The translations under genes and the position numbers were made by a program. The notes beneath the pieces are model-generated. The model worked only from the letters and a program-made list of their open reading frames with translations, made no database searches and was not told the DNA's origin. From IMG/VR virus record IMGVR_UViG_3300030708_001288, positions 1 through 44,478 of that record: DNA of 44,478 nt. One strand, given 5' to 3'. Source of the DNA: a virus. Lineage: Duplodnaviria; Caudoviricetes. Positions within the stretch are counted from its first letter, which is position 1. Each line of letters starts with the position of its first letter. Below, piece after piece: positions 26,301 through 37,770 of this stretch.

Positions 26301-26335
26301 AAAAAGAAAAGGTCTAGTCGACTAGACCCTTTCTC
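26301..26335 (-). terminator. Terminator-like hairpin built on a GTCTAGTCGACTAGAC palindrome (core 26312-26327, copy 1)
   Basis: Minus strand AGAAAGGGTCTAGTCGACTAGACCTTTTCTTTTT, just downstream of the SSB-like gene. Confidence 0.65.
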
Positions 26336-26352
26336 TTATGCATTCATTAGGT

Positions 26353-26613
26353 TTAGAAAGGAAGGTCAGCCTCTTGTTGCTTAGGCTCCTCTTTCTTTGG
26401 TTCCGGTTTAAATGTATCGACAGTAACATAATGAGTCTTACCATAATCATCTGCACCGTCTCTCTTTGCAGACACGTTTAGTTTGATGTAACGTTTACCG
26501 TTGTATTCAAACATGTGTTCCTTTGGTAGGTCACTAAGACATACACTCATACTTACCATCTGTCCGTCAAATTTTGACACACCATTTCCGACATAGATTT
26601 TTTCTTCTGCCAT
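26353..26613 (-). CDS. Probable single-stranded DNA-binding protein
   Basis: Short beta-rich ORF ending EADLPF, an SSB-type acidic tail; downstream of exonuclease and Sak genes. Confidence 0.6.
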   Translation of the reverse strand: MAEEKIYVGNGVSKFDGQMVSMSVCLSDLPKEHMFEYNGKRYIKLNVSAKRDGADDYGKTHYVTVDTFKPEPKKEEPKQQEADLPF

Positions 26614-26742
26614 AATAAAAATTATTTTTTATAAATTATTCTTTCCAACTTTTCCATTGTTGCCTCCATGAATCTATCACGTTCAGCTTGGGTTCTGATT
26701 TGTGTTGGAATCTCCAAAAACATAACCCCTTCTCTTTGTCTC

Positions 26743-27477
26743 TTAAAGAATCTCTTTAATGATATAGTTCTCGATATTCTCCGTAGCATTGTCACCATAA
26801 AACTTATTGTATATCTCCAGTGCTCTCTTAACTTTCTCTTTTCCATACTCTAAAAATGTTTCGCTCGGTTCAAATATTCCTAACTCTAAAGATGTCTTAT
26901 CTATAACATAAAATACTAATGACTTACCAAACAACTGATTGTATAGCCACGCTTGGCTATCGTAGTTATACTTCTTAGCCGAATACCTAAAGTCTTTTAT
27001 ATTACTTGTGGTCTTTAAGTCAATGATTATATCCTTAGTTATAATATCTGCCTTACCTTTCCACGCTATACCAAACAATTCTTTTATTGCCGGGACCTCA
27101 TACTCATTACCTTCCTCATAGATAGCATCATGAAACTCTAGGTTAGACTGCATGGTCTGTATTGCCTTGTCTATATCTTCCTTCTCTTTGTTAAGCATCA
27201 TTAAGTCTCTATTGTAATACTGTAATCCTTCCTTATAAAGTTTAGTGTTACGACTCGATGCATCTATACTTACAAACTCTTCACTGTCAATCTTGTGTGG
27301 CTCAAGCATAGCAGTATGGAAGTATCTACCAATAAGCATTGCCTTACTCATTGGTTTATCTTCTCTGAAATTTTTAGGGTCATTCAGTAGTGTGATGATA
27401 TCTGAGTTAGATAAATACTGTCTCCCTAACTCTCCATAATAATGGGAGTCATCTTTCAATAACTTTAACGCTTCCAT
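26743..27477 (-). CDS. RecE/exonuclease VIII-like PD-(D/E)xK exonuclease
   Basis: LSNS, G..FH...LEP, KGKADI...IIDLKTT and Y..QA..Y motifs. Confidence 0.8.
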   Translation of the reverse strand: MEALKLLKDDSHYYGELGRQYLSNSDIITLLNDPKNFREDKPMSKAMLIGRYFHTAMLEPHKIDSEEFVSIDASSRNTKLYKEGLQYYNRDLMMLNKEKEDIDKAIQTMQSNLEFHDAIYEEGNEYEVPAIKELFGIAWKGKADIITKDIIIDLKTTSNIKDFRYSAKKYNYDSQAWLYNQLFGKSLVFYVIDKTSLELGIFEPSETFLEYGKEKVKRALEIYNKFYGDNATENIENYIIKEIL

Positions 27478-28079
27478 TACTTGATATGTTTAGACAGTTC
27501 TTTCTTTACTAAAGGTTTTATCTTATACTTAGTCTCCAGGTTCTTAACGATTTTAGCTAGACCAATATCTTTATTGGATGCTATATACTTGAGTACCTTC
27601 TCCCAATTATTATCCCCAATGTTCAGTTCTATCACTGCATTCTTTGATGGGATAGGTGTCTTACTTACAGGGGCAGATGGAACAACTACTTTTGTGTCTT
27701 CACCAATCCATAAACTTAATCCCAACCCATGCATAGCTATAGCCTTGGTAGTACTACGTTGTATTGCAGTATTTACATCCATACTTGTAATCTTACCTAC
27801 GGATATAGACTGATTACGGAAGTTCATAACGGGTAGGTAGTCTATATGTTCTATATCTCCCACCTTGATACCAACCTTTACATACGCAGTGTTACCATCG
27901 GTATGGTAGTTGAGTCCGGTATGTTCTGACTCATAAACAATACGTTGGGCATTAGGATATTTATTTTTTAACATAGCCCAACTGTTTGCCCAACTGATGT
28001 AATCTAGTTGACCTTTCTTTTCTATCTTCGATGATACATCTATCGAGGACAGTTCTTTAAATACATTCTTCTTTTCCAT
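27477..28079 (-). CDS. sak: Sak (Rad52-like, DUF1071) single-strand annealing protein
   Basis: LDYISWA.SW, LPVMNFRN and IQRSTTKAIAMHGLGLSLWIGED signature. Confidence 0.8.
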   Translation of the reverse strand: MEKKNVFKELSSIDVSSKIEKKGQLDYISWANSWAMLKNKYPNAQRIVYESEHTGLNYHTDGNTAYVKVGIKVGDIEHIDYLPVMNFRNQSISVGKITSMDVNTAIQRSTTKAIAMHGLGLSLWIGEDTKVVVPSAPVSKTPIPSKNAVIELNIGDNNWEKVLKYIASNKDIGLAKIVKNLETKYKIKPLVKKELSKHIK

Positions 28080-28473
28080 TTGTGATTTTATTTAATTGTA
28101 ATTTACGTTCTGCATATTTATTAAGCAGTCCTTCTCGTCTTGCTTTCAGTGACATAATATGCTTGTTGTTCCTACGGGTTGACACCTCACCCCTTATCTT
28201 CTCTTCTATCATTCCTAGCTTTCGCTTGGTATTAGCTATACATAACCTCAATGCACCCTCGTTAAAGCCATACTTAAAAAAATATTTCTCCTCTTCCTCG
28301 TTGCAAGGTACGTAGTAGTCACCACCTCTAGCTAGGTTTATAATCTCTATCGTATCACCAAACTTCTGCACCTTTATCCCTAGGTTTATATAACCCTCAC
28401 CCTTAGGCATTGGGCTTTTAATTGCAGAGGTATCGGATTTGATTTGATTAAATATATCCTCCTTACTATACAT
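28057..28473 (-). CDS. Hypothetical protein
   Basis: 138-aa ORF in the operon. Confidence 0.6.
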   Translation of the reverse strand: MYSKEDIFNQIKSDTSAIKSPMPKGEGYINLGIKVQKFGDTIEIINLARGGDYYVPCNEEEEKYFFKYGFNEGALRLCIANTKRKLGMIEEKIRGEVSTRRNNKHIMSLKARREGLLNKYAERKLQLNKITNGKEECI

Positions 28474-28759
28474 CTTGAATCTTCTTGACTATATCTTTAA
28501 AATCCTGGTCGCTATCAATCAACTCCTTAGCTTTCTTGTAGCCATGAATGATTGTACTATGAGCCACCGAGTACCCGTTGTCCTCTAAGAATCTTTGGAT
28601 ATAACTAATCCTAATTGGTCTCTCCATACAGAGATAGTATAACAGTTGTCTTGCGTCTGTTATCTCACGCTTCTTTGTCTTTTCAAATAAACTATCTAAG
28701 CTTAAATGAAACTGCTGTGCTATTGCCTCAGCATAATTATTGAATGCTTCTTTTTTCAT
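28466..28759 (-). CDS. Second DnaA domain IV-like HTH protein
   Basis: KKREITDARQLLYYLC...HSTIIHGYKK. Confidence 0.75.
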   Translation of the reverse strand: MKKEAFNNYAEAIAQQFHLSLDSLFEKTKKREITDARQLLYYLCMERPIRISYIQRFLEDNGYSVAHSTIIHGYKKAKELIDSDQDFKDIVKKIQDV

Positions 28760-28784
28760 TTGTTCTATTTGTTTTTATGTTTAT

Positions 28785-28815
28785 CAAAAATAATACTTTA
28801 TTATTTCTATTCAAA
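28785..28815 (-). promoter_or_regulatory. Bacteroidota sigma-A promoter
   Basis: Minus strand TTTG-N19-TATTTTTG upstream of the 28759 start. Confidence 0.65.
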
Positions 28816-28974
28816 CTTTTGTTTAACTTTTTTATATAATCTTAAGCTTAAATCTTTAACTATATCTAACTCATCGTTGACATCTAACGCCATCAACTTA
28901 AACCTTTCCTTTGATACTAGGTCTTGAATAATAATTAACTCTTGTCTAGTTATTTTAATCGTTGTTGTTTCCAT
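28807..28974 (-). CDS. 55-aa hypothetical protein (not in ORF track)
   Basis: Hand translation METTTIKITRQEL...KQKFE*; preceded by AATAGAACAG. Confidence 0.6.
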   Translation of the reverse strand: METTTIKITRQELIIIQDLVSKERFKLMALDVNDELDIVKDLSLRLYKKVKQKFE

Positions 28975-28979
28975 CTGTT

Positions 28980-29075
28980 CTATTGTTTTAAATCTTTAAT
29001 TAAATTGTTAATAAACTCCCATTCCTTTTTAAGGAATCTCTTTACCTTACGTTTGATGTTACCTAGTATATTCAT
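28980..29075 (-). CDS. 31-aa hypothetical protein (not in ORF track)
   Basis: MNILGNIKRKVKRFLKKEWEFINNLIKDLKQ*; ATGA overlap with the upstream gene. Confidence 0.5.
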   Translation of the reverse strand: MNILGNIKRKVKRFLKKEWEFINNLIKDLKQ

Positions 29076-29335
29076 TCCTCAAAATATTTAGTTACTAATC
29101 GTTTGTATTCTTCCTTATACCAGTCACCCATCTCTTCATAATCTTCTTTGTATGGGGCGTAACCTCTATCTTCATAATGATTTTTTTCTGCCTCTAACCA
29201 TTGGTAGTTAGCATCTAAATCTGCATACTGAAATTTTTTATATAATAATTCTCTAGCTATTGCCTCGGGATTATTATTAAATGCTTTGACTGTAAAATTA
29301 ATTAAGTCTTGTTTAATTTTATTTTTATCTTCCAT
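29072..29335 (-). CDS. Early hypothetical protein
   Basis: 87-aa ORF in the dense minus-strand array. Confidence 0.65.
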   Translation of the reverse strand: MEDKNKIKQDLINFTVKAFNNNPEAIARELLYKKFQYADLDANYQWLEAEKNHYEDRGYAPYKEDYEEMGDWYKEEYKRLVTKYFEE

Positions 29336-29347
29336 CTGTTTTTGTTA

Positions 29348-29635
29348 TTAAAAGTCTAGTCGACTAGACCCATTGATTATTCTTTCCTTTTTGGTAGTCC
29401 ACTCTTTCTCTACCCTATCTGCTTCATAGTTACGTGATGTATCTATGTAACCATATTCATCTACATCTGTTACCACCAGGATATTAGTAAGGTGTGTGTC
29501 TATAGAACATCCATTAAGTAGTTCTTTAGATGTGTCTATATCAGTGGTATCTAATGCCTTATATAACTGTTCTATATCTTCTTGTATAAGTACTAACCTG
29601 CGTAGTAATTGTCCTCTTGTTAATTCTATTTTCAT
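29348..29635 (-). CDS. Early hypothetical protein
   Basis: 95 aa; last codons (SSRLD) are encoded by a palindrome copy. Confidence 0.65.
   Translation of the reverse strand: MKIELTRGQLLRRLVLIQEDIEQLYKALDTTDIDTSKELLNGCSIDTHLTNILVVTDVDEYGYIDTSRNYEADRVEKEWTTKKERIINGSSRLDF
29354..29369. repeat. 16-bp palindrome copy 2
   Basis: GTCTAGTCGACTAGAC. Confidence 0.95.
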
Positions 29636-29850
29636 AATTGTTTTTTTAATTCTTTGTCGTTTATACGAATATGTTCCTGCAATAAATCATATGTGTCCGA
29701 TTGTGGATTACTTAAAACTAATTGCCTTAGCATTTGGTCATTCATCCCAAGCTTCTCAATGATGTACTGCATTGTCTCTCCATCTAAGTCTATACGTCTT
29801 AGGTTTTCTATAGTATCTTGTACTACTTGTGCTTTGATTTCTCCTTCCAT
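29632..29850 (-). CDS. Early hypothetical protein
   Basis: 72-aa ORF, abutting neighbours. Confidence 0.6.
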   Translation of the reverse strand: MEGEIKAQVVQDTIENLRRIDLDGETMQYIIEKLGMNDQMLRQLVLSNPQSDTYDLLQEHIRINDKELKKQL

Positions 29851-29851
29851 C

Positions 29852-30085
29852 TTAAATAATATTTAATGTTTGTCTATCTAACTTTGCGTTCTCTTTTCTA
29901 GTGTATTCTCCTTGTACACCGGTTTGAATTTCTATATCAATAATATCATCATCATAATCGTAATGTTCTATGATACAAAATCCACCTTGTATACTTTTCA
30001 ATCCACTATCTCTTAACTCTTGTCTCTCTAAAACTTGTAGTTTAGATGCTAGTCTTTTTAATTCTGTGTTACTTAATTCTTCCAT
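29852..30085 (-). CDS. Early hypothetical protein
   Basis: 77-aa ORF, 1-nt gaps to neighbours. Confidence 0.6.
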   Translation of the reverse strand: MEELSNTELKRLASKLQVLERQELRDSGLKSIQGGFCIIEHYDYDDDIIDIEIQTGVQGEYTRKENAKLDRQTLNII

Positions 30086-30086
30086 C

Positions 30087-30362
30087 TTAAAATCCTATTA
30101 GTTTAAACCCCGTTCTCTTTTCAAAATCAGATACATCTCCTTGCATCTCCCTAACTAGAAACTTTTTATGTAGCCACACACCCAACTCGTGGTGGTCAAA
30201 CGGTTCATCACCTAAGTCTTCTATGGTAGTGTTCTCATCTATACCATAGTACTCTAACTCTGTTACCTGCTTGTCATCAATCCAAAAGGTTTTGGTATTG
30301 GTGTTTCCTTTTTTAGAATCAAATGTCATACTACACTTGATTACTTTGTTTTGTTTTTTCAT
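30087..30362 (-). CDS. Early hypothetical protein
   Basis: 91-aa ORF downstream of the 30396 promoter. Confidence 0.65.
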   Translation of the reverse strand: MKKQNKVIKCSMTFDSKKGNTNTKTFWIDDKQVTELEYYGIDENTTIEDLGDEPFDHHELGVWLHKKFLVREMQGDVSDFEKRTGFKLIGF

Positions 30363-30395
30363 AATTGATTTGATTTAAATTAATAATTATTTATA

Positions 30396-30426
30396 CAAAT
30401 ATAATACATTTATTTTACATATGCAA
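30396..30426 (-). promoter_or_regulatory. Repeated early promoter (TTG-N20-TATATTTG)
   Basis: Near-identical to the copies at 32408 and 35318. Confidence 0.8.
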
Positions 30427-30434
30427 GTTCTCCT

Positions 30435-30668
30435 TTATTTTATTTCGTTTTTAATTGCATATTCTAAATTTACATATTGGTCTTGGTTATTATATAAAAG
30501 ATATGTTCCATCTTCTTTTACAATTCTCTCACCAATAAATATTTCTACATAATCTTGTGGTAATCCCATTATTTTTTTATCATAATCTGAATAATGAAAT
30601 GCAATTTTTTTACCTATAAATTGGTAAAGTAATGGAACAAGTTCTTGTAATTGTGATTGTGTTTTCAT
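30435..30668 (-). CDS. Early hypothetical protein
   Basis: 77-aa ORF. Confidence 0.6.
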   Translation of the reverse strand: MKTQSQLQELVPLLYQFIGKKIAFHYSDYDKKIMGLPQDYVEIFIGERIVKEDGTYLLYNNQDQYVNLEYAIKNEIK

Positions 30669-30679
30669 ATTTATTTATT

Positions 30680-30922
30680 TTATGGTTTATAATTATTGTC
30701 AATCCACTGTACTAACTTATCTTTATTTTTTCCATCTAGGTTCATATAGAAATCAAAGAATCTATGTGTACCACATTTTGCTATACCTCCTGCCCACTTA
30801 TCTTTAAAGTGGTTAAGTAAATGTTCATCATCTGCCCATACCTTTTCCATCCAACCTATTGGAAAGTTGTATGCGAAGTACATAAATCTTGTTACCTGTG
30901 TTATGTCTGTGTCTGTTTTCAT
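30680..30922 (-). CDS. Early hypothetical protein
   Basis: 80-aa aromatic-rich ORF. Confidence 0.65.
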   Translation of the reverse strand: MKTDTDITQVTRFMYFAYNFPIGWMEKVWADDEHLLNHFKDKWAGGIAKCGTHRFFDFYMNLDGKNKDKLVQWIDNNYKP

Positions 30923-30925
30923 AAT

Positions 30926-31117
30926 CTATTTTATTTGATTAATAACTTCTTCTTGTTTATCCTTAGGTAGTTGGTTTACTCTTAACACCTCCTCCTCTCC
31001 GTACTTGTCCCTCATTGCTTCCTTTTTACTACCATATATTACTATCTCTTTACTAAAAACAAATCGTGCTAACCGATTGTTTTTTCTATCGTAGATTACA
31101 TAATCTTTTATATTCAT
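30926..31117 (-). CDS. Early hypothetical protein
   Basis: 63-aa ORF. Confidence 0.6.
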   Translation of the reverse strand: MNIKDYVIYDRKNNRLARFVFSKEIVIYGSKKEAMRDKYGEEEVLRVNQLPKDKQEEVINQIK

Positions 31118-31143
31118 AAGTTAATATTTTTTAATTATTAAAA

Positions 31144-31159
31144 GTCTAGTCGACTAGAC
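31144..31159. repeat. 16-bp palindrome copy 3
   Basis: AAA-GTCTAGTCGACTAGAC-TTT (22-bp palindrome, 31141-31162). Confidence 0.95.
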
Positions 31160-31160
31160 T

Positions 31161-31484
31161 TTACATATCTAAGAATGGTTCATCATCATCTATACATAGG
31201 TTTGAGGCTATCTCCTCCCAATCTATATGTTCTATCAATTCGTCATCCCATACCATAAATGTTATGTCTGTCTCATCTTGTATTTTTTCTTGTAACGCCT
31301 CAGTTAAACCATACTCATCATAGAATATATGTTCTTGTATATTGAATGGCTCATCTTTATATCGCATATAGTATATACTGTATCCATCTACTGATGTCTC
31401 CTCCCCTACCTCTATGTCAAAATTTTCTGAGTTCCAGTAGGTTAAGATTGTAATTCCTTGGTGTTCTAATACTTTCTCTTTCAT
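31161..31484 (-). CDS. Very acidic early protein (DNA-mimic candidate)
   Basis: About 30 D/E against 5 K/R in 107 aa. Confidence 0.65.
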   Translation of the reverse strand: MKEKVLEHQGITILTYWNSENFDIEVGEETSVDGYSIYYMRYKDEPFNIQEHIFYDEYGLTEALQEKIQDETDITFMVWDDELIEHIDWEEIASNLCIDDDEPFLDM

Positions 31485-31627
31485 TGTCTTAGATATTTAG
31501 TTAATAATTCTCCTGCTTCTTGCTTTGATAAGCCAAAGTGTTCTTGTATGTGTGGTCTAACACCATACACATTCTCTCCTAGTTCTTGCACTAGCATTTC
31601 TATAAATTCAAATACTTCTTTTTCCAT
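31481..31627 (-). CDS. 48-aa hypothetical protein (not in ORF track)
   Basis: MEKEVFEFIEML...LLTKYLRQ*; ATGA overlap with the 31484 start. Confidence 0.6.
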   Translation of the reverse strand: MEKEVFEFIEMLVQELGENVYGVRPHIQEHFGLSKQEAGELLTKYLRQ

Positions 31628-31638
31628 TTTATTTTATT

Positions 31639-31869
31639 TTAATTAATATTAGTGTAATTATTTTCTACCCAATCATTACGTGATTCAGTTACATCATTTT
31701 CTAGATTATCATAATCATCAGAAAAACAATACTCACATATCTCAACCATCCCTTTTATGTCATCTTCCTCACAGTATGAGTTATCTAATAATTCCATTAC
31801 TAAATCATAGACTGACGTATAATCTCTTTCTTCTACGTACTCCTTAAAAATAAATTCTTTTTTAGTCAT
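31639..31869 (-). CDS. Acidic early hypothetical protein
   Basis: 76-aa D/E-rich ORF. Confidence 0.6.
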   Translation of the reverse strand: MTKKEFIFKEYVEERDYTSVYDLVMELLDNSYCEEDDIKGMVEICEYCFSDDYDNLENDVTESRNDWVENNYTNIN

Positions 31870-31889
31870 TTTAGTTTAGTTTATGTAAG

Positions 31890-31905
31890 GTCTAGTCGAC
31901 TAGAC
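31890..31905. repeat. 16-bp palindrome copy 4
   Basis: GTCTAGTCGACTAGAC. Confidence 0.95.
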
Positions 31906-31919
31906 TCACTGATTTATAT

Positions 31920-32378
31920 TTATCCGTATACTACCTTTCCCATTGTCATTAACTGAAACAATACATCTGCAGTATCTGCATCTCCATCATTATACTCGGG
32001 AAAGTGTGCCTTGTAACACTTAGTATACCCTGTGGTATTTGCAAGACTCAAGCCTTTACCTATACTTTCTAGGTCTAGATATCCTATAGGTTCAAGTTCA
32101 TCATAGTCTTCTGCATCTCCCCATTGTGCTTCCTCTACATCATATACTTCTATTTTATGTGGACACCCTTGAAACATTGCATCCATCCATTTGTAATGGA
32201 CACTCTCATTTCTCTTGAGTTCTCCTGCCTCTATCTTCTTATCAAACCAATCCTCTAATGCGTCTTGCCCATCCATCCAATACCAATAGTTTGAGCCACC
32301 TTCTAGTGCAGTAATTAATACCTCTTCAATTGCTTCTAACGGGATGCTTACATCCATTTTAAATTCTACATTCTTCAT
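31920..32378 (-). CDS. Conserved phage hypothetical protein
   Basis: TALEGGSNYW ... DADTADVLFQ..MGKVVYG, a family recurrent in phage early regions. Confidence 0.7.
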   Translation of the reverse strand: MKNVEFKMDVSIPLEAIEEVLITALEGGSNYWYWMDGQDALEDWFDKKIEAGELKRNESVHYKWMDAMFQGCPHKIEVYDVEEAQWGDAEDYDELEPIGYLDLESIGKGLSLANTTGYTKCYKAHFPEYNDGDADTADVLFQLMTMGKVVYG

Positions 32379-32407
32379 AATTGTTTATTTATTGTTAATA
32401 CTATGTA

Positions 32408-32438
32408 CAAATATAATACATTAATTATACATATGCAA
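32408..32438 (-). promoter_or_regulatory. Repeated early promoter (TTG-N20-TATATTTG)
   Basis: Minus strand TTGCATATGTATAATTAATGTATTATATTTG. Confidence 0.8.
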
Positions 32439-32456
32439 GTCCTTATATAATTATTT

Positions 32457-33044
32457 TTAGTTTCGTATAAACTTATTCCTTATTGATGCCCATATGATAG
32501 CTTGGTACTCATATCCTGTGAGTCCTAGCTTGTGTGCTTTCTTTAGGGTAAGCTTTTGTATCTGCTCATAAGCTACCTTTCCACACGTACCCATTGTCTT
32601 ATTGAAACACGCACGTAGATGCCATACATCTATAGTCACATACCTAGAATCTAGGTAACCAATATTATGTACAAATGCATAGGTCTTCTGACTATCTTTA
32701 CTTATAGTTCTCGTTGCTTTTGCTATCTCAAAGGCTTTGAATTTATTGGTATGAAACGTGCATACCTTTATATCGTTCGCTTCCTTTCCTTCTTCTACTG
32801 CCTTGAATACCTTGTGCGTATCTATTATATTTTGTTCCCACTTATTTCTTGGCGATAGTGCAGATATAACACCGGCTACCACAAAACTAGTTGTCTTAAA
32901 TTCCTTAGCATATTCTACACAAATCTCATTAGCTTTTGGATACCAGGATATACCATCACTAATCTCATCTTTTGTTGCTATGTTAAACCACGCATCTAGG
33001 TTTTTAGATATAGTGTTTAACTTGTACTTACTTAACTGTTTCAT
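32457..33044 (-). CDS. Conserved phage protein, HhH-GPD DNA glycosylase-like
   Basis: G.SWY, ISALSPRNKW, KT.AF..NI, VTIDVWH and QAIIW motifs. Confidence 0.55.
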   Translation of the reverse strand: MKQLSKYKLNTISKNLDAWFNIATKDEISDGISWYPKANEICVEYAKEFKTTSFVVAGVISALSPRNKWEQNIIDTHKVFKAVEEGKEANDIKVCTFHTNKFKAFEIAKATRTISKDSQKTYAFVHNIGYLDSRYVTIDVWHLRACFNKTMGTCGKVAYEQIQKLTLKKAHKLGLTGYEYQAIIWASIRNKFIRN

Positions 33045-33070
33045 AATTGTTTTTGTTTTGGTTAATACTT

Positions 33071-33086
33071 GTCTAGTCGACTAGAC
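33071..33086. repeat. 16-bp palindrome copy 5
   Basis: GTCTAGTCGACTAGAC; supplies the TAG stop of ORF 33073-33273. Confidence 0.95.
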
Positions 33087-33273
33087 TTTTATTTATTTCA
33101 GAATGATGTTTAATCTCCAATACCTTACCACCGTAGTTACGCATAAGAAACGTACTCCAATTAAGGAAATGTTTTTCACTCTTAAATTCTTTCTCATAGG
33201 TGGAATAAGTTCCACCTGTACCACCGTACTTTACTGTACAGTAATATTTTTCATTTGGTTTAAATTCCATCAT
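33073..33273 (-). CDS. Early hypothetical protein
   Basis: 66 aa, ends KSLVD* inside the palindrome. Confidence 0.6.
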   Translation of the reverse strand: MMEFKPNEKYYCTVKYGGTGGTYSTYEKEFKSEKHFLNWSTFLMRNYGGKVLEIKHHSEINKSLVD

Positions 33274-33500
33274 TCTTCTTTATGTTTTAATTCATAAGTT
33301 TCTGCCCATCCATCTATCATTTCAAATATATTTCCTATAATCCATTCATTCTGTAATGTTCTATCTAATATTATATATGCTTCTTCATCGGTGCATTCAT
33401 AAGTTTGTTGGACATCATCTATTGTCCAGAGGTTATCTACATAGTAACCCTTACTCTTTAGAAACTCTCTAGCTTCTTCAATTTGTTTTATTACTCCCAT
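33270..33500 (-). CDS. Early hypothetical protein
   Basis: 76-aa ORF (W..DDV....TDEEA..IL). Confidence 0.65.
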   Translation of the reverse strand: MGVIKQIEEAREFLKSKGYYVDNLWTIDDVQQTYECTDEEAYIILDRTLQNEWIIGNIFEMIDGWAETYELKHKEE

Positions 33501-33519
33501 TTGTTCTATTGTATTTTAG

Positions 33520-33705
33520 TTATTCACTAGTTAATAATATTACCTCTCCACTTATCTCATAACCACTTTGACCTTCTTCATAAAATTCTATATCACATAC
33601 CCATTGATTAGGTATATCATCACAACTATTACTTTTTTCTAAACATCTTATAGGTAAGTCTTGTGGTAATTCTTTAAGTCTTTTAATCATTTCTTTTACT
33701 GTCAT
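33520..33705 (-). CDS. Early hypothetical protein
   Basis: MTVKEMIKRLKELPQDLPI N-terminus, common in phage small proteins. Confidence 0.65.
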   Translation of the reverse strand: MTVKEMIKRLKELPQDLPIRCLEKSNSCDDIPNQWVCDIEFYEEGQSGYEISGEVILLTSE

Positions 33706-33710
33706 CTGTT

Positions 33711-33908
33711 CTATTTTTTATAATTAATAATATGTACTTCCTCATTCTCATCCATCTCCAACCCTAGAACCTCATTGATTTCATCGTGTATTAAATCTTG
33801 AATTTCAAAATGATGTTCATCTTCAGATATTAATTTTAATTCAATCAACTTGTCAATGCATCTTATTGCAATATCCCTTGTGTCGTCATATGTTATTTTA
33901 CTTTCCAT
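33711..33908 (-). CDS. Early hypothetical protein
   Basis: 65-aa acidic ORF. Confidence 0.6.
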   Translation of the reverse strand: MESKITYDDTRDIAIRCIDKLIELKLISEDEHHFEIQDLIHDEINEVLGLEMDENEEVHIINYKK

Positions 33909-33919
33909 ATTTTCTATTT

Positions 33920-34126
33920 TTATATTTTATTTTCTCTAAACACATCATAATCTTGTGCCTCCATATCTGCTTGATGACTTGTCATTTCGTCATCGGTATA
34001 TTTAATCTCATTAAACATAGCATCTATTCTTTTTTGTTGTTCATCATCTGCATTATGTTCTAATTCAGTTATTATCTCACACGCAGTATTCAACAATCTA
34101 TTTAATTGGTATTTTGTAAATCCCAT
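33920..34126 (-). CDS. Early hypothetical protein
   Basis: 68-aa ORF. Confidence 0.6.
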   Translation of the reverse strand: MGFTKYQLNRLLNTACEIITELEHNADDEQQKRIDAMFNEIKYTDDEMTSHQADMEAQDYDVFRENKI

Positions 34127-34152
34127 CTGTTCTATTTTTTAGTTAATACTAG

Positions 34153-34168
34153 GTCTCGTCAACGAGAC
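34153..34168. repeat. 16-bp palindrome copy 6 (compensatory variant)
   Basis: GTCTCGTCAACGAGAC: paired A>C and T>G changes keep the stem. Confidence 0.85.
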
Positions 34169-34173
34169 ATTAT

Positions 34174-34623
34174 TTATTTTGTTTCAATTAATTCCCGTTT
34201 TTTTTGTTCAATCATTTGTTTAACAATTCTGATAAATCTTGGATTTGTGCTATCTCTGATATAAGATATTTCACCAAAATTTTTGTTAAACCATTCATAC
34301 CTGTCATATACTCTTGTTATTCTTTTCAGAAGGTATTTAAATGATTTTAAATCTCTGACTGTCGCAGTCCAACCAGAAGTTATTCGTATGTGTATTACAT
34401 TTCTATTCTTCCATTGTTTAGAATCCCTGTCTACTTCTACATATTCCCATTCATTTTGATGGTTTATATTCTGATAGTTTTTATTTATACTATAATCTTC
34501 ATAAATTTCATTTATACTATCGTAGGGTATCATATCTCCAGTTAAATCTTCTAAATATTCAATTAAATCTTGTTTATCGTAAAGGATTTCTCCTGTTTTT
34601 TTCCATTTATAACCTATTATCAT
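34174..34623 (-). CDS. Early hypothetical protein
   Basis: 149-aa ORF. Confidence 0.6.
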   Translation of the reverse strand: MIIGYKWKKTGEILYDKQDLIEYLEDLTGDMIPYDSINEIYEDYSINKNYQNINHQNEWEYVEVDRDSKQWKNRNVIHIRITSGWTATVRDLKSFKYLLKRITRVYDRYEWFNKNFGEISYIRDSTNPRFIRIVKQMIEQKKRELIETK

Positions 34624-34853
34624 ATCATTTCGTTTTTAATATCTAAGATTCTATTCAGTAACTCCTCATCAAAATGGTCAAATGTTCTACGTCTATCTGC
34701 ATTGTTTACTGCAGTTATTGTAGGATACCATTGACGTTCTTCATCAGATGGATATACCGAACTTTGAATCCTTAGCTTTGGTTTGTACTCATTCTCTTCT
34801 ACAATCCTCTTCTTTGGATTGAAAAATTTGTGGATTAAATCGTTTGTATTCAT
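34620..34853 (-). CDS. Early hypothetical protein
   Basis: 77-aa ORF. Confidence 0.6.
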   Translation of the reverse strand: MNTNDLIHKFFNPKKRIVEENEYKPKLRIQSSVYPSDEERQWYPTITAVNNADRRRTFDHFDEELLNRILDIKNEMI

Positions 34854-34855
34854 AT

Positions 34856-35062
34856 CTATTTTATTTTAATTTCTCTAAATGTATCATCTTCATCATCTTC
34901 ATCATAACTATATAACATACCACGTTTTGCATTTAGCTTTTTAGCCATATCATCATAATCCTTTTGTGATGGTTCTACATTTCCATATCTTTCAGTATCT
35001 ATGATTTCATCATTTTCATCAAGAAATTCTATCTTATAGTGAGTTTCTATTTCTCTATCCAT
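34856..35062 (-). CDS. Acidic early hypothetical protein
   Basis: 68-aa D/E-rich ORF. Confidence 0.6.
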   Translation of the reverse strand: MDREIETHYKIEFLDENDEIIDTERYGNVEPSQKDYDDMAKKLNAKRGMLYSYDEDDEDDTFREIKIK

Positions 35063-35078
35063 TTTATTTTATTTTAGT

Positions 35079-35201
35079 TTATTTTTTTAGTTCATTATAA
35101 TACCTTTCTACTAAAGAATCTACATAAGTCTTCATATGTTGAACATTACTATAAATTTGTCCGTAATACTCAACGATTTCTTTTCTACTTATTTTTTTCA
35201 T
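35079..35201 (-). CDS. 40-aa hypothetical protein (not in ORF track)
   Basis: MKKISRKEIVEYY...YNELKK*; AAATAGATATG start context. Confidence 0.5.
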   Translation of the reverse strand: MKKISRKEIVEYYGQIYSNVQHMKTYVDSLVERYYNELKK

Positions 35202-35226
35202 ATCTATTTTATTTTATTCATACTTA

Positions 35227-35242
35227 GTCTAGTCGGCTAGAC
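35227..35242. repeat. 16-bp palindrome copy 7
   Basis: GTCTAGTCGGCTAGAC. Confidence 0.9.
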
Positions 35243-35250
35243 TTTTATCG

Positions 35251-35298
35251 CTACCATCGGCAGTTTTGCTCTGCTTCACATCCTATGTTCAATGGTAG
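35251..35298 (-). ncRNA. Putative structured leader/small RNA (three-way junction)
   Basis: 9-bp closing stem enclosing two 4-bp hairpins, just downstream of a promoter; no meaningful ORF. Confidence 0.4.
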
Positions 35299-35317
35299 TA
35301 TTATTACTAACTTTCTA

Positions 35318-35325
35318 CAAATATA
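35318..35325 (-). promoter_or_regulatory. Repeated early promoter -7 element (TATATTTG)
   Basis: Shares TACAAATATAATACATTAATTATACAT with the 32406 copy. Confidence 0.75.
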
Positions 35326-35371
35326 ATACATTAATTATACATTAAAAAGTTCTCATTCAATTATTTTTAGT

Positions 35372-35794
35372 TTAAAATTCTGATTCCACATAACTAGATA
35401 CCATCCTCATTTTAGATTTGTGTTCTATATAAATTATTTCATCATATGTTTCTTGTATTTCTCGCCAAATTAGATAGGCATACATTCGCCACATTTGTTC
35501 GCCTGTATATTTCTTTTCTTTTGGATTTATACCTAATCCATTTAGAAACTTTTCAATATCATAATCAGTAAACTTAAAATTAAACACTATTCCCATTAGA
35601 TAATTTTGAAACCTATCTTGATTGTTTGGATATCTATTTTTATTGTATTGATGATTTGAAACCCTTATGAATTCTTTTACTAGATATTCTCTAGCATCAT
35701 CAAAACTTTTAAAACTTTCTTCATTATAATCGTGCATACTCTCCAGGATATGCTTCCTTACGTTCTCACGTACTTTTTTATTATTTGTTCTCAT
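35372..35794 (-). CDS. Early hypothetical protein
   Basis: 140-aa ORF. Confidence 0.65.
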   Translation of the reverse strand: MRTNNKKVRENVRKHILESMHDYNEESFKSFDDAREYLVKEFIRVSNHQYNKNRYPNNQDRFQNYLMGIVFNFKFTDYDIEKFLNGLGINPKEKKYTGEQMWRMYAYLIWREIQETYDEIIYIEHKSKMRMVSSYVESEF

Positions 35795-35825
35795 TTTATT
35801 TTATTATTTGTTCTCATTTTATTTT
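35776..35825. repeat. 23-bp tandem duplication at a gene junction
   Basis: TTTTATTATTTGTTCTCATTTTA twice (35776-35798, 35799-35821). Confidence 0.9.
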
Positions 35826-36051
35826 CTATCCATAAATTATAAATATAGTCGTATGGTTTTTTTAATTCTATTGCTAGTTGAGTAAATAAGCGTTCTCTTA
35901 TAATACTATCGCATCCTTGACCAATAAACTCATAAACATCCTCTGAAGTATATAAATTATCTAATAATTGTACGAATGTTATATCTTCATTAATTTCATT
36001 TCCGAATTCATCTTCGGGATATTTTTTTAAGTAAAATTCTTTTATTTTCAT
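35791..36051 (-). CDS. Early hypothetical protein
   Basis: 86 aa (DSIIRERLF..LA......YDYIYNLW). Confidence 0.65.
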   Translation of the reverse strand: MKIKEFYLKKYPEDEFGNEINEDITFVQLLDNLYTSEDVYEFIGQGCDSIIRERLFTQLAIELKKPYDYIYNLWIENKMRTNNKIK

Positions 36052-36058
36052 ATCTAGT

Positions 36059-36232
36059 TTATTTCATATAATATTTTTTATCCCATCTTCTTCTAGAATT
36101 GTAACATCCTTTTTTCTTTTTCTTTTTTCTTTTCTTTTTTCTATACTCTATAATATCAACTTCTTTGACATTGTCGTTTGCATAACTTCCGTATGCAATT
36201 ACTAAACTGATTGTGATTAAAATTGTTTTCAT
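36059..36232 (-). CDS. 57-aa signal-peptide protein with polybasic tract (not in ORF track)
   Basis: MKTILITISLVIAYGSYA-NDNVKEVDIIEYRKKKRKKKKKKGCYNSRRRWDKKYYMK*. Confidence 0.55.
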   Translation of the reverse strand: MKTILITISLVIAYGSYANDNVKEVDIIEYRKKKRKKKKKKGCYNSRRRWDKKYYMK

Positions 36233-36234
36233 AT

Positions 36235-36477
36235 CTATTTTTTTAGTTCATTAATTAATTCATCTCGCATAAGACCTAACCAATAGTTTTCTATTTCGTT
36301 TCGGTCTTCTTCTATTCCATTAAAAATGTCTTCATTATTCCACTCCATTAAATCCTCAATCGTGTTAAGCATTTCTTGTACTTGGAATCTATGGATAGTT
36401 ACACTATCTTTTTTTGTTTGTCCGTAGCTAGTGAAAGCTATCGTTAAACACATTACTGTTTTAATAATTCTTTTCAT
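36235..36477 (-). CDS. Small exported protein
   Basis: Sec-type signal MKRIIKTVMCLTIAFTSYG-Q with Gln at +1. Confidence 0.65.
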   Translation of the reverse strand: MKRIIKTVMCLTIAFTSYGQTKKDSVTIHRFQVQEMLNTIEDLMEWNNEDIFNGIEEDRNEIENYWLGLMRDELINELKK

Positions 36478-36496
36478 TTTCTTTTCTTTTCTTTTT

Positions 36497-36512
36497 GTCT
36501 AGTCGGCTAGAC
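36497..36512. repeat. 16-bp palindrome copy 8
   Basis: GTCTAGTCGGCTAGAC; supplies the TAG stop of ORF 36499-36702. Confidence 0.9.
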
Positions 36513-36702
36513 TTTTAATTAATAAATTGTCAGTTATCTCATTTCCTAGCTTAAATCGTAATTGTGTTATTTTTAACCTAAGCAAATTAAATAACTGCTC
36601 ATCATCTTGAACTATCTCTTTACAGTCCATAAATTCATTGTGCAATGACATAACTGCATTATGCATTTTTGCGTCATCATACGTCTTTACGTTTTCCATC
36701 AT
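36499..36702 (-). CDS. Early hypothetical protein
   Basis: 67 aa, ends KSLAD* inside the palindrome. Confidence 0.6.
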   Translation of the reverse strand: MMENVKTYDDAKMHNAVMSLHNEFMDCKEIVQDDEQLFNLLRLKITQLRFKLGNEITDNLLIKSLAD

Positions 36703-36724
36703 CTTATCATATTTAAAATTTACA

Positions 36725-36732
36725 CAAATTTA
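36725..36732 (-). promoter_or_regulatory. -7 promoter element (TAAATTTG)
   Basis: TAnnTTTG 22 nt upstream of the 36702 start. Confidence 0.55.
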
Positions 36733-36800
36733 ACAATAATTGAACGATTTAAAAAGTTCTGTATTAACTATTTTTAGTTCATAATATGGGCTTTTATTTT

Positions 36801-36816
36801 GTCTAGTCGGCTAGAC
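36801..36816. repeat. 16-bp palindrome copy 9
   Basis: GTCTAGTCGGCTAGAC between divergent promoters. Confidence 0.9.
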
Positions 36817-36864
36817 TTTTTTACAATGTTATTTTTTGAAACTAAATTTTTTTTTGGTGAATTG

Positions 36865-36894
36865 TTGATTTATACAAAAATTATACTAACTTTG
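36865..36894 (+). promoter_or_regulatory. Bacteroidota sigma-A promoter
   Basis: TTG-N19-TAACTTTG upstream of 36928. Confidence 0.7.
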
Positions 36895-36927
36895 AATCAT
36901 TATTAATCATCTAAAAACTTAAAAACG

Positions 36928-37719
36928 ATGGAAAACACAACAAATGTAAAAGCATTTTTAAACAATGCACAAGTAAAAAAAGGTTTGAATTTAACAGGTA
37001 TTTCAAACGCTTTAGAATCAATTAAAAAAGGTGAAACAGACCTTTTCAACAAATCAGTTAAATTAGGCGCTTTAATCTTTAGTACTTGCGAATGGTTAAA
37101 GACAGTAAAAGCAAAAGAACTTTTAAAGTCTAATGGTCTTGAATGGAAGCAACAAGATTTAATTAAAAAGAGTTTTGATTTATACGGCAAAGAAATCAAA
37201 AAGGCTTGGTTTTATAGACTGCAAAAAGTTGGTAAAATGGACGCTAAAATAAAAGACGCTTTTTTAATTGCTTGTAACAAAATTGAAGAGTTAAAAAATT
37301 CGCCAAACATCTCAATAGATGAGTTAACAAAATTTGAAAACCTTGTTAATTATGACGCTAAAAAAGGAGTGACAAAAACGCTTTTAAATGAAGCAATTGA
37401 AAAGTACGTTAAACTATTCATTGACGGTAAGCAAGAAGTTGAAGACGTAGCCGAAGCCGTAGAAACTGAAACAACGGAAGAAACTGAAACAAGCGAAGCC
37501 GTAGAACTTGACAAAGGGACTAAACTAATGTTAAATTTCAAATCAAAAGATGGTTCTAATGTTGTTCTTAGAATTACGGACAACGGCGAGATTATAACGA
37601 CGAATTCAGATAGTCAAATTAATGAAGCTATTGAATTTATAATAGAACGCCGTATGATGAAAGCAAAACGCAATCAAGCAAAAAAGACGCTTAAAAAAGG
37701 TGGCGTAAAAATCAAATAA
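36928..37719 (+). CDS. Hypothetical protein, possible DNA-binding protein
   Basis: 263 aa with its own promoter and terminator; helical N-domain, acidic linker, small C-domain and basic tail. Confidence 0.7.
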   Translation: MENTTNVKAFLNNAQVKKGLNLTGISNALESIKKGETDLFNKSVKLGALIFSTCEWLKTVKAKELLKSNGLEWKQQDLIKKSFDLYGKEIKKAWFYRLQKVGKMDAKIKDAFLIACNKIEELKNSPNISIDELTKFENLVNYDAKKGVTKTLLNEAIEKYVKLFIDGKQEVEDVAEAVETETTEETETSEAVELDKGTKLMLNFKSKDGSNVVLRITDNGEIITTNSDSQINEAIEFIIERRMMKAKRNQAKKTLKKGGVKIK

Positions 37720-37735
37720 GTCTAGTTGACTAGAC
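37720..37735. repeat. 16-bp palindrome copy 10
   Basis: GTCTAGTTGACTAGAC immediately after the TAA of 36928-37719. Confidence 0.9.
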
Positions 37736-37745
37736 TTTTTTACAG

Positions 37746-37770
37746 GGGGGCAATTGCCCCCTTTTTTTTT
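37746..37770 (+). terminator. Intrinsic terminator
   Basis: GGGGGCAATTGCCCCC followed by T9. Confidence 0.85.

What the first reader, a model, noticed from the sequence alone, without database searches (positions are those of the whole stretch)
26312..37735. Ten copies of a 16-bp palindrome (GTCTAG-YYGA-CTAGAC) punctuate the early region: candidate undescribed cis-element system
Seen: copies at 26312, 29354, 31144, 31890, 33071, 34153, 35227, 36497, 36801 and 37720; I noticed none in the structural or groEL arms. All lie at gene junctions, and seven sit 18-26 nt upstream of the next ATG. Two supply the upstream gene's TAG stop (KSLVD*, KSLAD*). The 6-bp arms are invariant except at 34153, where both arms change compensatorily (GTCTCG/CGAGAC). 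Read in the direction of local transcription, the centre is YYGA (TCGA, CCGA, TTGA), including the copy behind the + strand gene. Copies 31890 to 36497 are about 1.1-1.3 kb apart. Inference: selection on a strand-oriented hairpin (mRNA processing/stabilising site, or ssDNA hairpin), or a dimer-binding operator or parS-like array over the early DNA, or recombination sites delimiting exchangeable gene cassettes.
Basis: partly seen in the sequence, partly recalled or inferred. Interest (0 to 1): 0.9.

Follow-up and report, generated by a model that had tools for sequence, protein, structure and literature searches.

The report
Phage protein marks own early DNA
Ten copies of a 16-letter symmetric DNA word in this marine phage's early region occur together, in this and several unrelated phage groups, with one undescribed gene whose product is predicted to bind them, likely letting the phage silence its own early genes and perhaps those of invading kin.

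Summary
The ten palindromes are real (10 found, 1.5 expected). They behave as DNA sites, not RNA hairpins. Relatives carry their own 16-bp words (GTCTGT-N4-ACAGAC, GTCCGT-N4-ACGGAC, GTGTCGTTAACGACAC), partly inside coding sequence. Central letters are not conserved, and in phi29-like phages with the same word the arms usually break pairing (52 one-sided changes, 6 two-sided).

A candidate reader sits in the window: ORF 36928-37719, flanked by two copies. Its homologues are the first early gene in all 4 array-bearing relatives and absent from 16 of 16 array-less ones (a 21st, partial record lacks the region). The window and those four make only two lineages. Remote homologues also accompany arrays in phi29-like gut phages and a 41-kb phage. 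One homologue (an inovirus) has no array. A relative's model has a helix-turn-helix weakly like the KorB DNA-binding domain.

Best reading: a phage-coded repressor and a stoperator-like site array that silences the early arm. Binding and function are untested. No description was found in print, and the scan had no earlier finding on this protein, though it noted similar arrays without a reader elsewhere.

The parts
26312..26327 (.). Site 1; forms the stem of the intrinsic terminator after the 86-aa gene 26353-26613
   Evidence: long stem plus U-tract, z -5.5; most relatives have an ordinary GC hairpin terminator here
29354..29369 (.). Site 2; in the last codons of ORF 29348-29635, 18 nt before the next ATG
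31144..31159 (.). Site 3; gene junction
31890..31905 (.). Site 4; reads as the GTCTCG form in one contig of a co-occurring strain
   Evidence: run X7, loose end at 31907 (single contig)
33071..33086 (.). Site 5; supplies the stop codon of ORF 33073-33273
34153..34168 (.). Site 6; GTCTCG form, same flanks as a site of sister lineage L207
   Evidence: 61 nt at 92% identity
35227..35242 (.). Site 7; about 75 nt downstream of a putative early promoter, behind a structured leader
36497..36512 (.). Site 8; supplies the stop codon of ORF 36499-36702
36801..36816 (.). Site 9; between the divergent putative promoters of the early operon and of ORF 36928 (candidate autoregulatory operator)
37720..37735 (.). 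Site 10; directly after the stop of ORF 36928, before a separate terminator
36928..37719 (+). Candidate cognate DNA-binding protein, 263 aa; predicted helix-turn-helix around residues 75-103; acidic linker; small C-terminal beta-beta-beta-alpha domain
   Evidence: co-occurrence with arrays; models; KorB DNA-binding domain among top fold matches of a homologue, Z 4.9; DUF3102 look-alike
36865..36894 (+). Putative Bacteroidetes-type promoter (TTG...TAnnTTTG, consensus recalled) for ORF 36928
36725..36732 (-). Putative -7 box of the first early promoter
35318..35325 (-). Putative -7 box of an early promoter
32408..32438 (-). Putative early promoter
30396..30426 (-). Putative early promoter
28785..28814 (-). 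Putative early promoter
37744..37770 (+). Intrinsic terminator after ORF 36928

Best explanation
The ten palindromes are likely double-stranded DNA docking sites for the phage's own protein from ORF 36928-37719, which is predicted to bind them as a pair and would silence the early region, including its own gene. Shown: the array, the gene between two of its copies, the joint presence or absence of gene and array in relatives, lineage-specific words, and sites inside genes. Inferred: the protein is made first, dimerises, and reads two 8-bp half-sites with a helix-turn-helix (about 75% for binding). Bound dimers near promoters and about every 1.1 kb would block initiation or elongation by host RNA polymerase, ending the early phase or holding a carrier state. 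They would do the same to an incoming sister genome with the same word. That would favour joint divergence of protein and word, as between immunity groups (about two thirds of the binding probability).
For: (1) Among 21 relatives, G001-G004 have arrays and a homologue as first early gene, flanked by sites. A profile of those four ranks the window ORF next (E 1.2e-8 among 1,673 ORFs). None of the 16 array-less genomes scores better than E 0.21. (2) Tests made after the hypothesis: loci pulled by the protein carry sites (L192 10, L193 5, L191 1 before its contig ends). MW202828 has a homologue (E 5e-14) and 14 perfect copies of a new word. Of 6 phi29-like GenBank records picked by polymerase, the one with a homologue (MT836125, E 5e-13) has 8 sites and the 5 without have no 16-bp array. 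(3) Unrelated phi29-like phages carry the window's word genome-wide (L014 20 sites, L027 7), and their first gene resembles the family (hhalign 70%, E 4e-5). 41-kb phage G036 has 7 sites clustered in one 5-kb operon, two of them flanking its first gene, which hits the family weakly (E 5.6e-5 among 212 sequences). (4) DNA-level selection: in Sak the conserved ESEHTGLN reads ESVQTDLN or ESVQTELN exactly where G001, G002 and G004 carry a site. All copies in a genome change word together. (5) Arm changes at 85 sites in 8 phi29-like loci: 52 one-sided, 6 two-sided. (6) A homologue's model (pLDDT 83) has helices 72-80 and 84-99. KorB's DNA-binding domain aligns over residues 35-142 (Z 4.9, rmsd 3.1, 76 residues). 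(7) Site 36801 lies between divergent putative promoters. In G001-G004 one or two sites per genome start 24-31 nt after a -7 box.
Against: No binding or expression data exist. Within the family the co-occurrence rests on two lineages: the window groups with array-less G005, G010 and G018, while G001-G004 and MW202828 form one clade, so Fisher's p of 1e-5 is overstated. The fold evidence is weak: Z under 8 and tied with unrelated helical proteins, no Foldseek hit at E 0.001 or better, and the window protein's own model is poor (pLDDT 54). Inovirus PQ006181 has a homologue (E 4e-12) but no array. L006 and L035 have only one site, 67-75 nt upstream of a weakly similar gene. Very different proteins (window, L014, L027; 17-25% identical) go with the same word, while closer ones go with different words. 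Most window sites do not overlap a promoter. No integrase was seen among 61 window ORFs, so a lysogenic use is not established.
Confidence: 0.5

Rival explanations
1. Same protein and sites, but a structural role: the protein coats, loops or positions the first-entering DNA (KorB/ParB-like nucleoprotein array), shielding it from host defences or helping entry or replication rather than repressing it.
For: Regular spacing (median gap 1.04-1.20 kb in the window and G001-G004). 7-12 sites lie within 12 kb of the gene, thinning out beyond, with single sites in late genes. In phi29-like phages sites cover the whole genome. The 16-bp geometry resembles parS (recalled), and MT836125's word differs from it at 4 of 16 places. 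Weak KorB-type fold.
Against: The models show no CTPase domain, and no ParA was annotated among 61 window ORFs. Sites flanking the gene's own promoter, and single upstream sites in L006 and L035, look regulatory. Which genome end enters first is inferred, not shown.
Confidence: 0.25
2. RNA hairpins that act as processing, stabilising or terminating signals in early transcripts.
For: All copies can fold. Site 26312 is a terminator stem. In G001-G004 some sites form stem III of hammerhead-type ribozyme motifs. Window arms are never mismatched, and centres show a strand bias in the window and in G001/G002.
Against: Loop letters differ between lineages, and one lineage has a perfect palindrome. 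Sites sit inside genes at the cost of amino-acid changes. Arms break pairing 52:6 in phi29-like arrays. Terminators and hammerheads exist without the word in array-less relatives, so the word was placed into existing hairpins. No Rfam match.
Confidence: 0.1
3. Sites for a host protein (repressor sensing or sponging); the phage gene is only a linked passenger.
For: The same word occurs in phages of very different habitats with only distantly related proteins.
Against: The exact word is rare and scattered in 596 billion bases of prokaryotic genomes (99 stretches, mostly single, one flavobacterial among the 80 listed). The word changes among related phages, and presence tracks the phage gene.
Confidence: 0.08
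4. Recombination sites that delimit exchangeable gene cassettes (PeSL- or integron-like).
For: Early genes are shuffled among close strains, and some junctions fall within about 50 nt of a site. One strain has the alternative word at 31890.
Against: Indels in L207 and L224 end at start-codon or leader microhomologies and are not bounded by two sites. None of the 15 joints shown (42 more were not shown) joins two sites. Sites occur inside core genes. No site-specific recombinase was annotated, while a Sak annealing protein and an exonuclease VIII-like gene were.
Confidence: 0.05

Closest known systems
Repressor-stoperator system of cluster A mycobacteriophages (L5, Bxb1; PMC6550527 and PMC9283540, passages read)
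   Same: A phage-coded helix-turn-helix protein with 20-30 sites over the genome, most not at promoters and often in short intergenic spaces. Site consensus and protein diverge together between lineages.
   Different: There a monomer binds an asymmetric, orientation-dependent 13-mer in temperate phages. Here the sites are symmetric 16-mers, concentrated in the early arm. No integrase was seen in the window, and the module also occurs in phi29-like phages. Function here is untested.
KorB/OB of plasmid RK2 and ParB/parS (PMC11790492, abstract start and passages read; parS consensus recalled)
   Same: Palindromic dispersed sites. The DNA-binding domain of KorB is among the best fold matches of a homologue (Z 4.9). 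KorB represses from sites away from promoters.
   Different: KorB needs a CTP-binding clamp domain and KorA. The phage protein has no such domain in its models, and no ParA or KorA partner was found.
PeSL cassettes of T4-type phages (PMC2839356, abstract read)
   Same: Repeated stem-loop elements at junctions of variable early genes, with shuffling of those genes.
   Different: PeSLs are promoter-plus-terminator units that act by recombination. Here most copies lack a promoter and a U-tract, occur inside core genes and track a specific protein.
DUF3102 (PF11300) proteins
   Same: Nearest Pfam-named cluster by language-model features (score 0.91; family on 30% of that cluster's members).
   Different: No Pfam hit to DUF3102 at E up to 5 for the window, L014 or L027 proteins. 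The family has no described function that I could find.

Membership tests
Mycobacteriophage repressor-stoperator system | Many dispersed sites, mostly not at promoters | tested here: met
Mycobacteriophage repressor-stoperator system | Asymmetric 13-bp site oriented with transcription | tested here: not met
   16-bp palindromes; centre bias not conserved
Mycobacteriophage repressor-stoperator system | Cognate phage HTH protein co-varying with the site | tested here: inconclusive
   co-occurrence and lineage-specific words; binding not shown
Mycobacteriophage repressor-stoperator system | Blocks transcription elongation and gives superinfection immunity | not testable with these tools
   needs a host and reporter assays
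Mycobacteriophage repressor-stoperator system | Temperate phage (integrase or ParAB) | tested here: inconclusive
   none among 61 window ORFs; the record is 76% complete and relatives were not scanned for these families
ParB/KorB-parS/OB | HTH DNA-binding domain of ParB/KorB type | tested here: inconclusive
   KorB 8qa8_A Z 4.9, rmsd 3.1, 76 residues; 1r71_A Z 4.2; tied with unrelated rows
ParB/KorB-parS/OB | N-terminal CTPase (ParB-N) domain | tested here: not met
   no Pfam hit; N-terminus modelled as helices only
ParB/KorB-parS/OB | Palindromic site of about 16 bp | tested here: met
DUF3102 (PF11300) | Scores above the Pfam cut-off | tested here: not met
   only a look-alike by features
PeSL cassettes | Each unit holds a promoter and a terminator hairpin | tested here: not met
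   promoters and sites are separate; only 26312 is a clear terminator
PeSL cassettes | Indel breakpoints inside the repeated unit | tested here: inconclusive
   few strains; breakpoints near but mostly not in the word
Known structured RNA (Rfam) | Match at the gathering score | tested here: not met

The most novel reading that the evidence does not exclude
A portable one-gene self-marking module: a clamp-less KorB/ParB-type DNA-binding protein plus a private 16-bp barcode written across the genome, even into conserved coding sequence. It has spread among unrelated, apparently non-integrating phages (marine GroEL-encoding podoviruses, phi29-like gut phages, a 41-kb phage) and would give them immunity groups or kin recognition without lysogeny.
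Probability: 0.3. Interest if true: 0.85.

Novelty: new variant of a known kind. Interest (0 to 1): 0.7.

Why it matters
Dispersed repressor-site arrays are known from temperate mycobacteriophages and from plasmid RK2. A symmetric version with its own protein family, in phages that show no sign of integration, would extend that logic to abundant marine and gut phages. It could explain how they time early shut-off, persist or exclude kin. The finding supplies several natural protein-word pairs that can be tested at once by EMSA and reporter assays in E. coli, and it gives a function lead for an unannotated DUF3102-like family.

Tried and rejected
Rfam: nothing meaningful in the window's early region, and only a tRNA in 10 related loci; the hammerhead motifs were not picked up at the gathering score. 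The window protein alone found 2 near-identical homologues, no viral loci and nothing in 30 relatives; the family was reached only through G001-G004. No GenBank phage matched the L014, G004 or L035 proteins. PDB sequence searches gave nothing useful, and Pfam and PHROGs gave only unnamed families. Fold searches with the window model were uninformative. Foldseek with the G004 model had no hit at E 0.001 or better; COMMD and chromodomain rows were weak. The wide profile search of protein representatives never ran, so the family's full range is open. The complex predictor was not available, so dimerisation is untested. No RNA holder was listed. Motif-rich loci L211, L236, L268 and L269 look like tandem genomic repeats without real genes and were set aside, as was L229 (output partly cut). 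Profile scores for proteins that were themselves in the alignment are circular and were not used as evidence. The two DnaA-C-like HTH genes and ORF 40888 were rejected as readers: they occur in array-less relatives too. Print searches that found no description: motif strings, DUF3102 with phage, listings only. Supplements were not searched, and papers outside the open library were not seen.
Full report
Setting. The window is a 76%-complete virus record. It has virion genes including a crAss-type muzzle domain, a primase, an SNF2 helicase, an exonuclease VIII-like gene, Sak, GroEL and GroES. Best GenBank primase hits are a 61-kb freshwater podovirus and Flavobacterium phages, and the listed runs that hold it are mostly marine. 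A Bacteroidetes host is inferred from these hits and from TAnnTTTG promoter boxes (consensus recalled). No integrase was annotated among the 61 ORFs scanned.

Observation. Ten copies lie at the stated places, against 1.46 expected. Spacings to ATG, stop overlaps and sense-strand centres check out. 29354 is inside the end of an ORF.

Relatives have their own words. Of 80 loci fetched with Sak, four showed arrays of the same geometry. I fetched 21 related records whole, chosen for length, near-identity or an array. G001 and G002 carry 16 and 15 copies of GTCTGT-N4-ACAGAC, G004 has 16 of GTCCGT-N4-ACGGAC, and G003 has 7 of a TCCGT-N4-ACGGAT type. In the other 17 no such arm occurs more than twice. 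One of those 17, G005, begins 966 nt before Sak and lacks the early arm, so 16 count as array-less. Sites sit at homologous places across G001-G004, including inside Sak, the helicase and a large virion gene. In Sak the site replaces a conserved ESEHTGLN by ESVQTDLN or ESVQTELN. Elsewhere the word occupies the tip of hairpins that exist anyway: the terminator after the 86-aa gene in the window, and stem III of hammerhead-type motifs in G001-G004. Such motifs also occur without the word in 8 of 16 array-less genomes. Density is highest near the first early gene, with a median gap of about 1.1 kb.

In G001-G004 the first early gene encodes a 192-229-aa protein flanked by sites. A profile of these four ranks window ORF 36928-37719 next (E 1.2e-8 among 1,673 ORFs), then the first genes of two phi29-like contigs (E 0.0034 and 0.047). 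No ORF of the 16 array-less genomes does better than E 0.21. The primase tree puts the window among array-less phages and G001-G004 with MW202828 in another clade, so this is two lineages, not six independent cases. Later tests agreed. Three new loci found through the protein have 10, 5 and 1 sites. MW202828 has a homologue and 14 perfect GTGTCGTTAACGACAC. Marine contig L207, 93% identical to the window over groEL, has a divergent homologue and 5 GTCTCG-type plus 1 GTCTAG-type sites. The window's odd copy at 34153 shares its flanks with an L207 site, so it is better read as shared by exchange than as an in-place compensatory change. A single contig shows the reverse switch at 31890.

Beyond the family. 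The window's word forms genome-wide arrays in phi29-like phages with no detectable protein similarity to the window at E 1e-4 (L014 20 sites, L027 7), and in more such contigs from metagenomes. Their first-gene family matches the marine family at 70% probability, E 4e-5, over the predicted HTH and following helices. Of six phi29-like GenBank records picked by polymerase, one has the gene and 8 sites of yet another word; five have neither. MT835488 has a homologue and 4 copies of GTTGCACCGGTGCAAC in the 50 of 64 kb examined. Inovirus PQ006181 has a homologue and no array. G036 (41 kb) has 7 sites clustered at 10.1-15.4 kb, two of them flanking a 200-aa first gene. A first search missed that gene, and it hits the family only weakly. 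In prokaryotic genomes the exact word is rare and mostly single.

DNA or RNA. The centre bias of the window is not conserved. G001 and G002 read TCNA on the sense strand, G004 is mixed, G003 has mostly TATA and MW202828 has TTAA. At 85 sites in 8 phi29-like loci, arm changes are one-sided 52 times and two-sided 6 times (some loci are related, and many sites are under coding constraint). With the coding-sequence sites and the genome-wide change of word, this points to half-sites read on double-stranded DNA. Within the window's own family the arms are nearly always perfect, and several sites do double duty as RNA stems, so an added RNA role is not excluded.

Structure. The window protein models poorly (pLDDT 54). 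The G004 homologue models well (83): a long helix, a helix-turn-helix at 72-99, two further helices, an acidic linker and a small beta-beta-beta-alpha domain. Among 48,161 chains the best rows are weak. DeoR/SorC HTH domains and KorB's DNA-binding domain (Z 4.9, 76 residues, model 35-142) are among them. The Atlas's nearest named cluster is DUF3102-containing, but Pfam does not score the protein. The HTH assignment is a prediction.

Mechanism. Shown: array, gene, co-occurrence, word turnover, sites in genes. Inferred: dimeric binding (about 75%). Among uses, silencing of the early arm is preferred. One site separates the divergent promoters of the gene and the early operon, some sites in relatives follow a -7 box by 24-31 nt, and the layout parallels mycobacteriophage stoperators, where 20-30 mostly non-promoter sites block elongation and diverge with their repressor (PMC6550527 and PMC9283540, passages). 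A structural or protective coat is the main rival. Cassette recombination fits poorly: swaps in L207 and L224 end at leader microhomologies, which Sak-type recombination would explain (inference).

Comparison. It works like a stoperator or KorB-operator array but is a member of neither. The site is symmetric, no CTPase domain is present, and lysogeny is not shown. It differs from PeSLs (PMC2839356, abstract). Searches listed no description. The scan had nothing on this protein or region; its notes on other phage palindrome arrays name no reader protein.

Verdict. A real and widespread protein-plus-palindrome module; new variant of a known kind; interest 0.7.

Noticed in passing
L096:5175-5245 and others in G001-G004, G006, G007, G009, G011, G015, G017, G018, G027, G031: Hammerhead-type ribozyme motifs (1-4 per genome, 12 of 21 relatives) between early genes, ending just before start codons; missed by Rfam at the gathering score; none in the window.
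   Followed up: partly
window:35243-35325 (minus strand); L207:455-570: Structured leader (three-way junction, z -3.6) between a putative promoter and site 7, conserved in close strains; no Rfam match; possible unknown RNA motif.
   Followed up: partly
window:36928-37719: The gene points away from the early operon, whereas homologues in G001-G004, L207 and MW202828 are co-oriented with it. Strains share DNA from 38261 onward but differ upstream, so the module is swapped as a block.
   Followed up: partly
window:38030-38170: Strand-skewed GGGACA/CAGGG repeats in a gene-free stretch; possibly the genome end or packaging region.
   Followed up: no
L027:5076-5240, L008, L579, L575, L577: Host-type parS words (GTTTCACGTGAAAC, consensus recalled) in phi29-like phages, 1-4 copies, in L027, L008 and L579 alongside the new arrays.
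   Followed up: partly
L085:4199-6510: A different repeated structured leader (two adjacent hairpins, about 4 copies) before early genes of G026, which lacks the protein.
   Followed up: no
L059, L064, L072: Repeated hairpin plus GTCAGTTACAAA leader before early genes in another group of relatives.
   Followed up: no
G001-G004 early arm; G036:11429-13499: Early gene pairs that look like glutamine amidotransferase and amidoligase genes (recalled from sequence pattern), shared between these phage groups.
   Followed up: no
window, whole: GATC 0, CGCG 0, GCGC 1: strong avoidance of some restriction sites.
   Followed up: no
L373, L386, L388, L409, L412, L420: One Obscuribacterales MAG has pairs of the word about 98 bp apart on several contigs, probably a repeat element of its own.
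   Followed up: no
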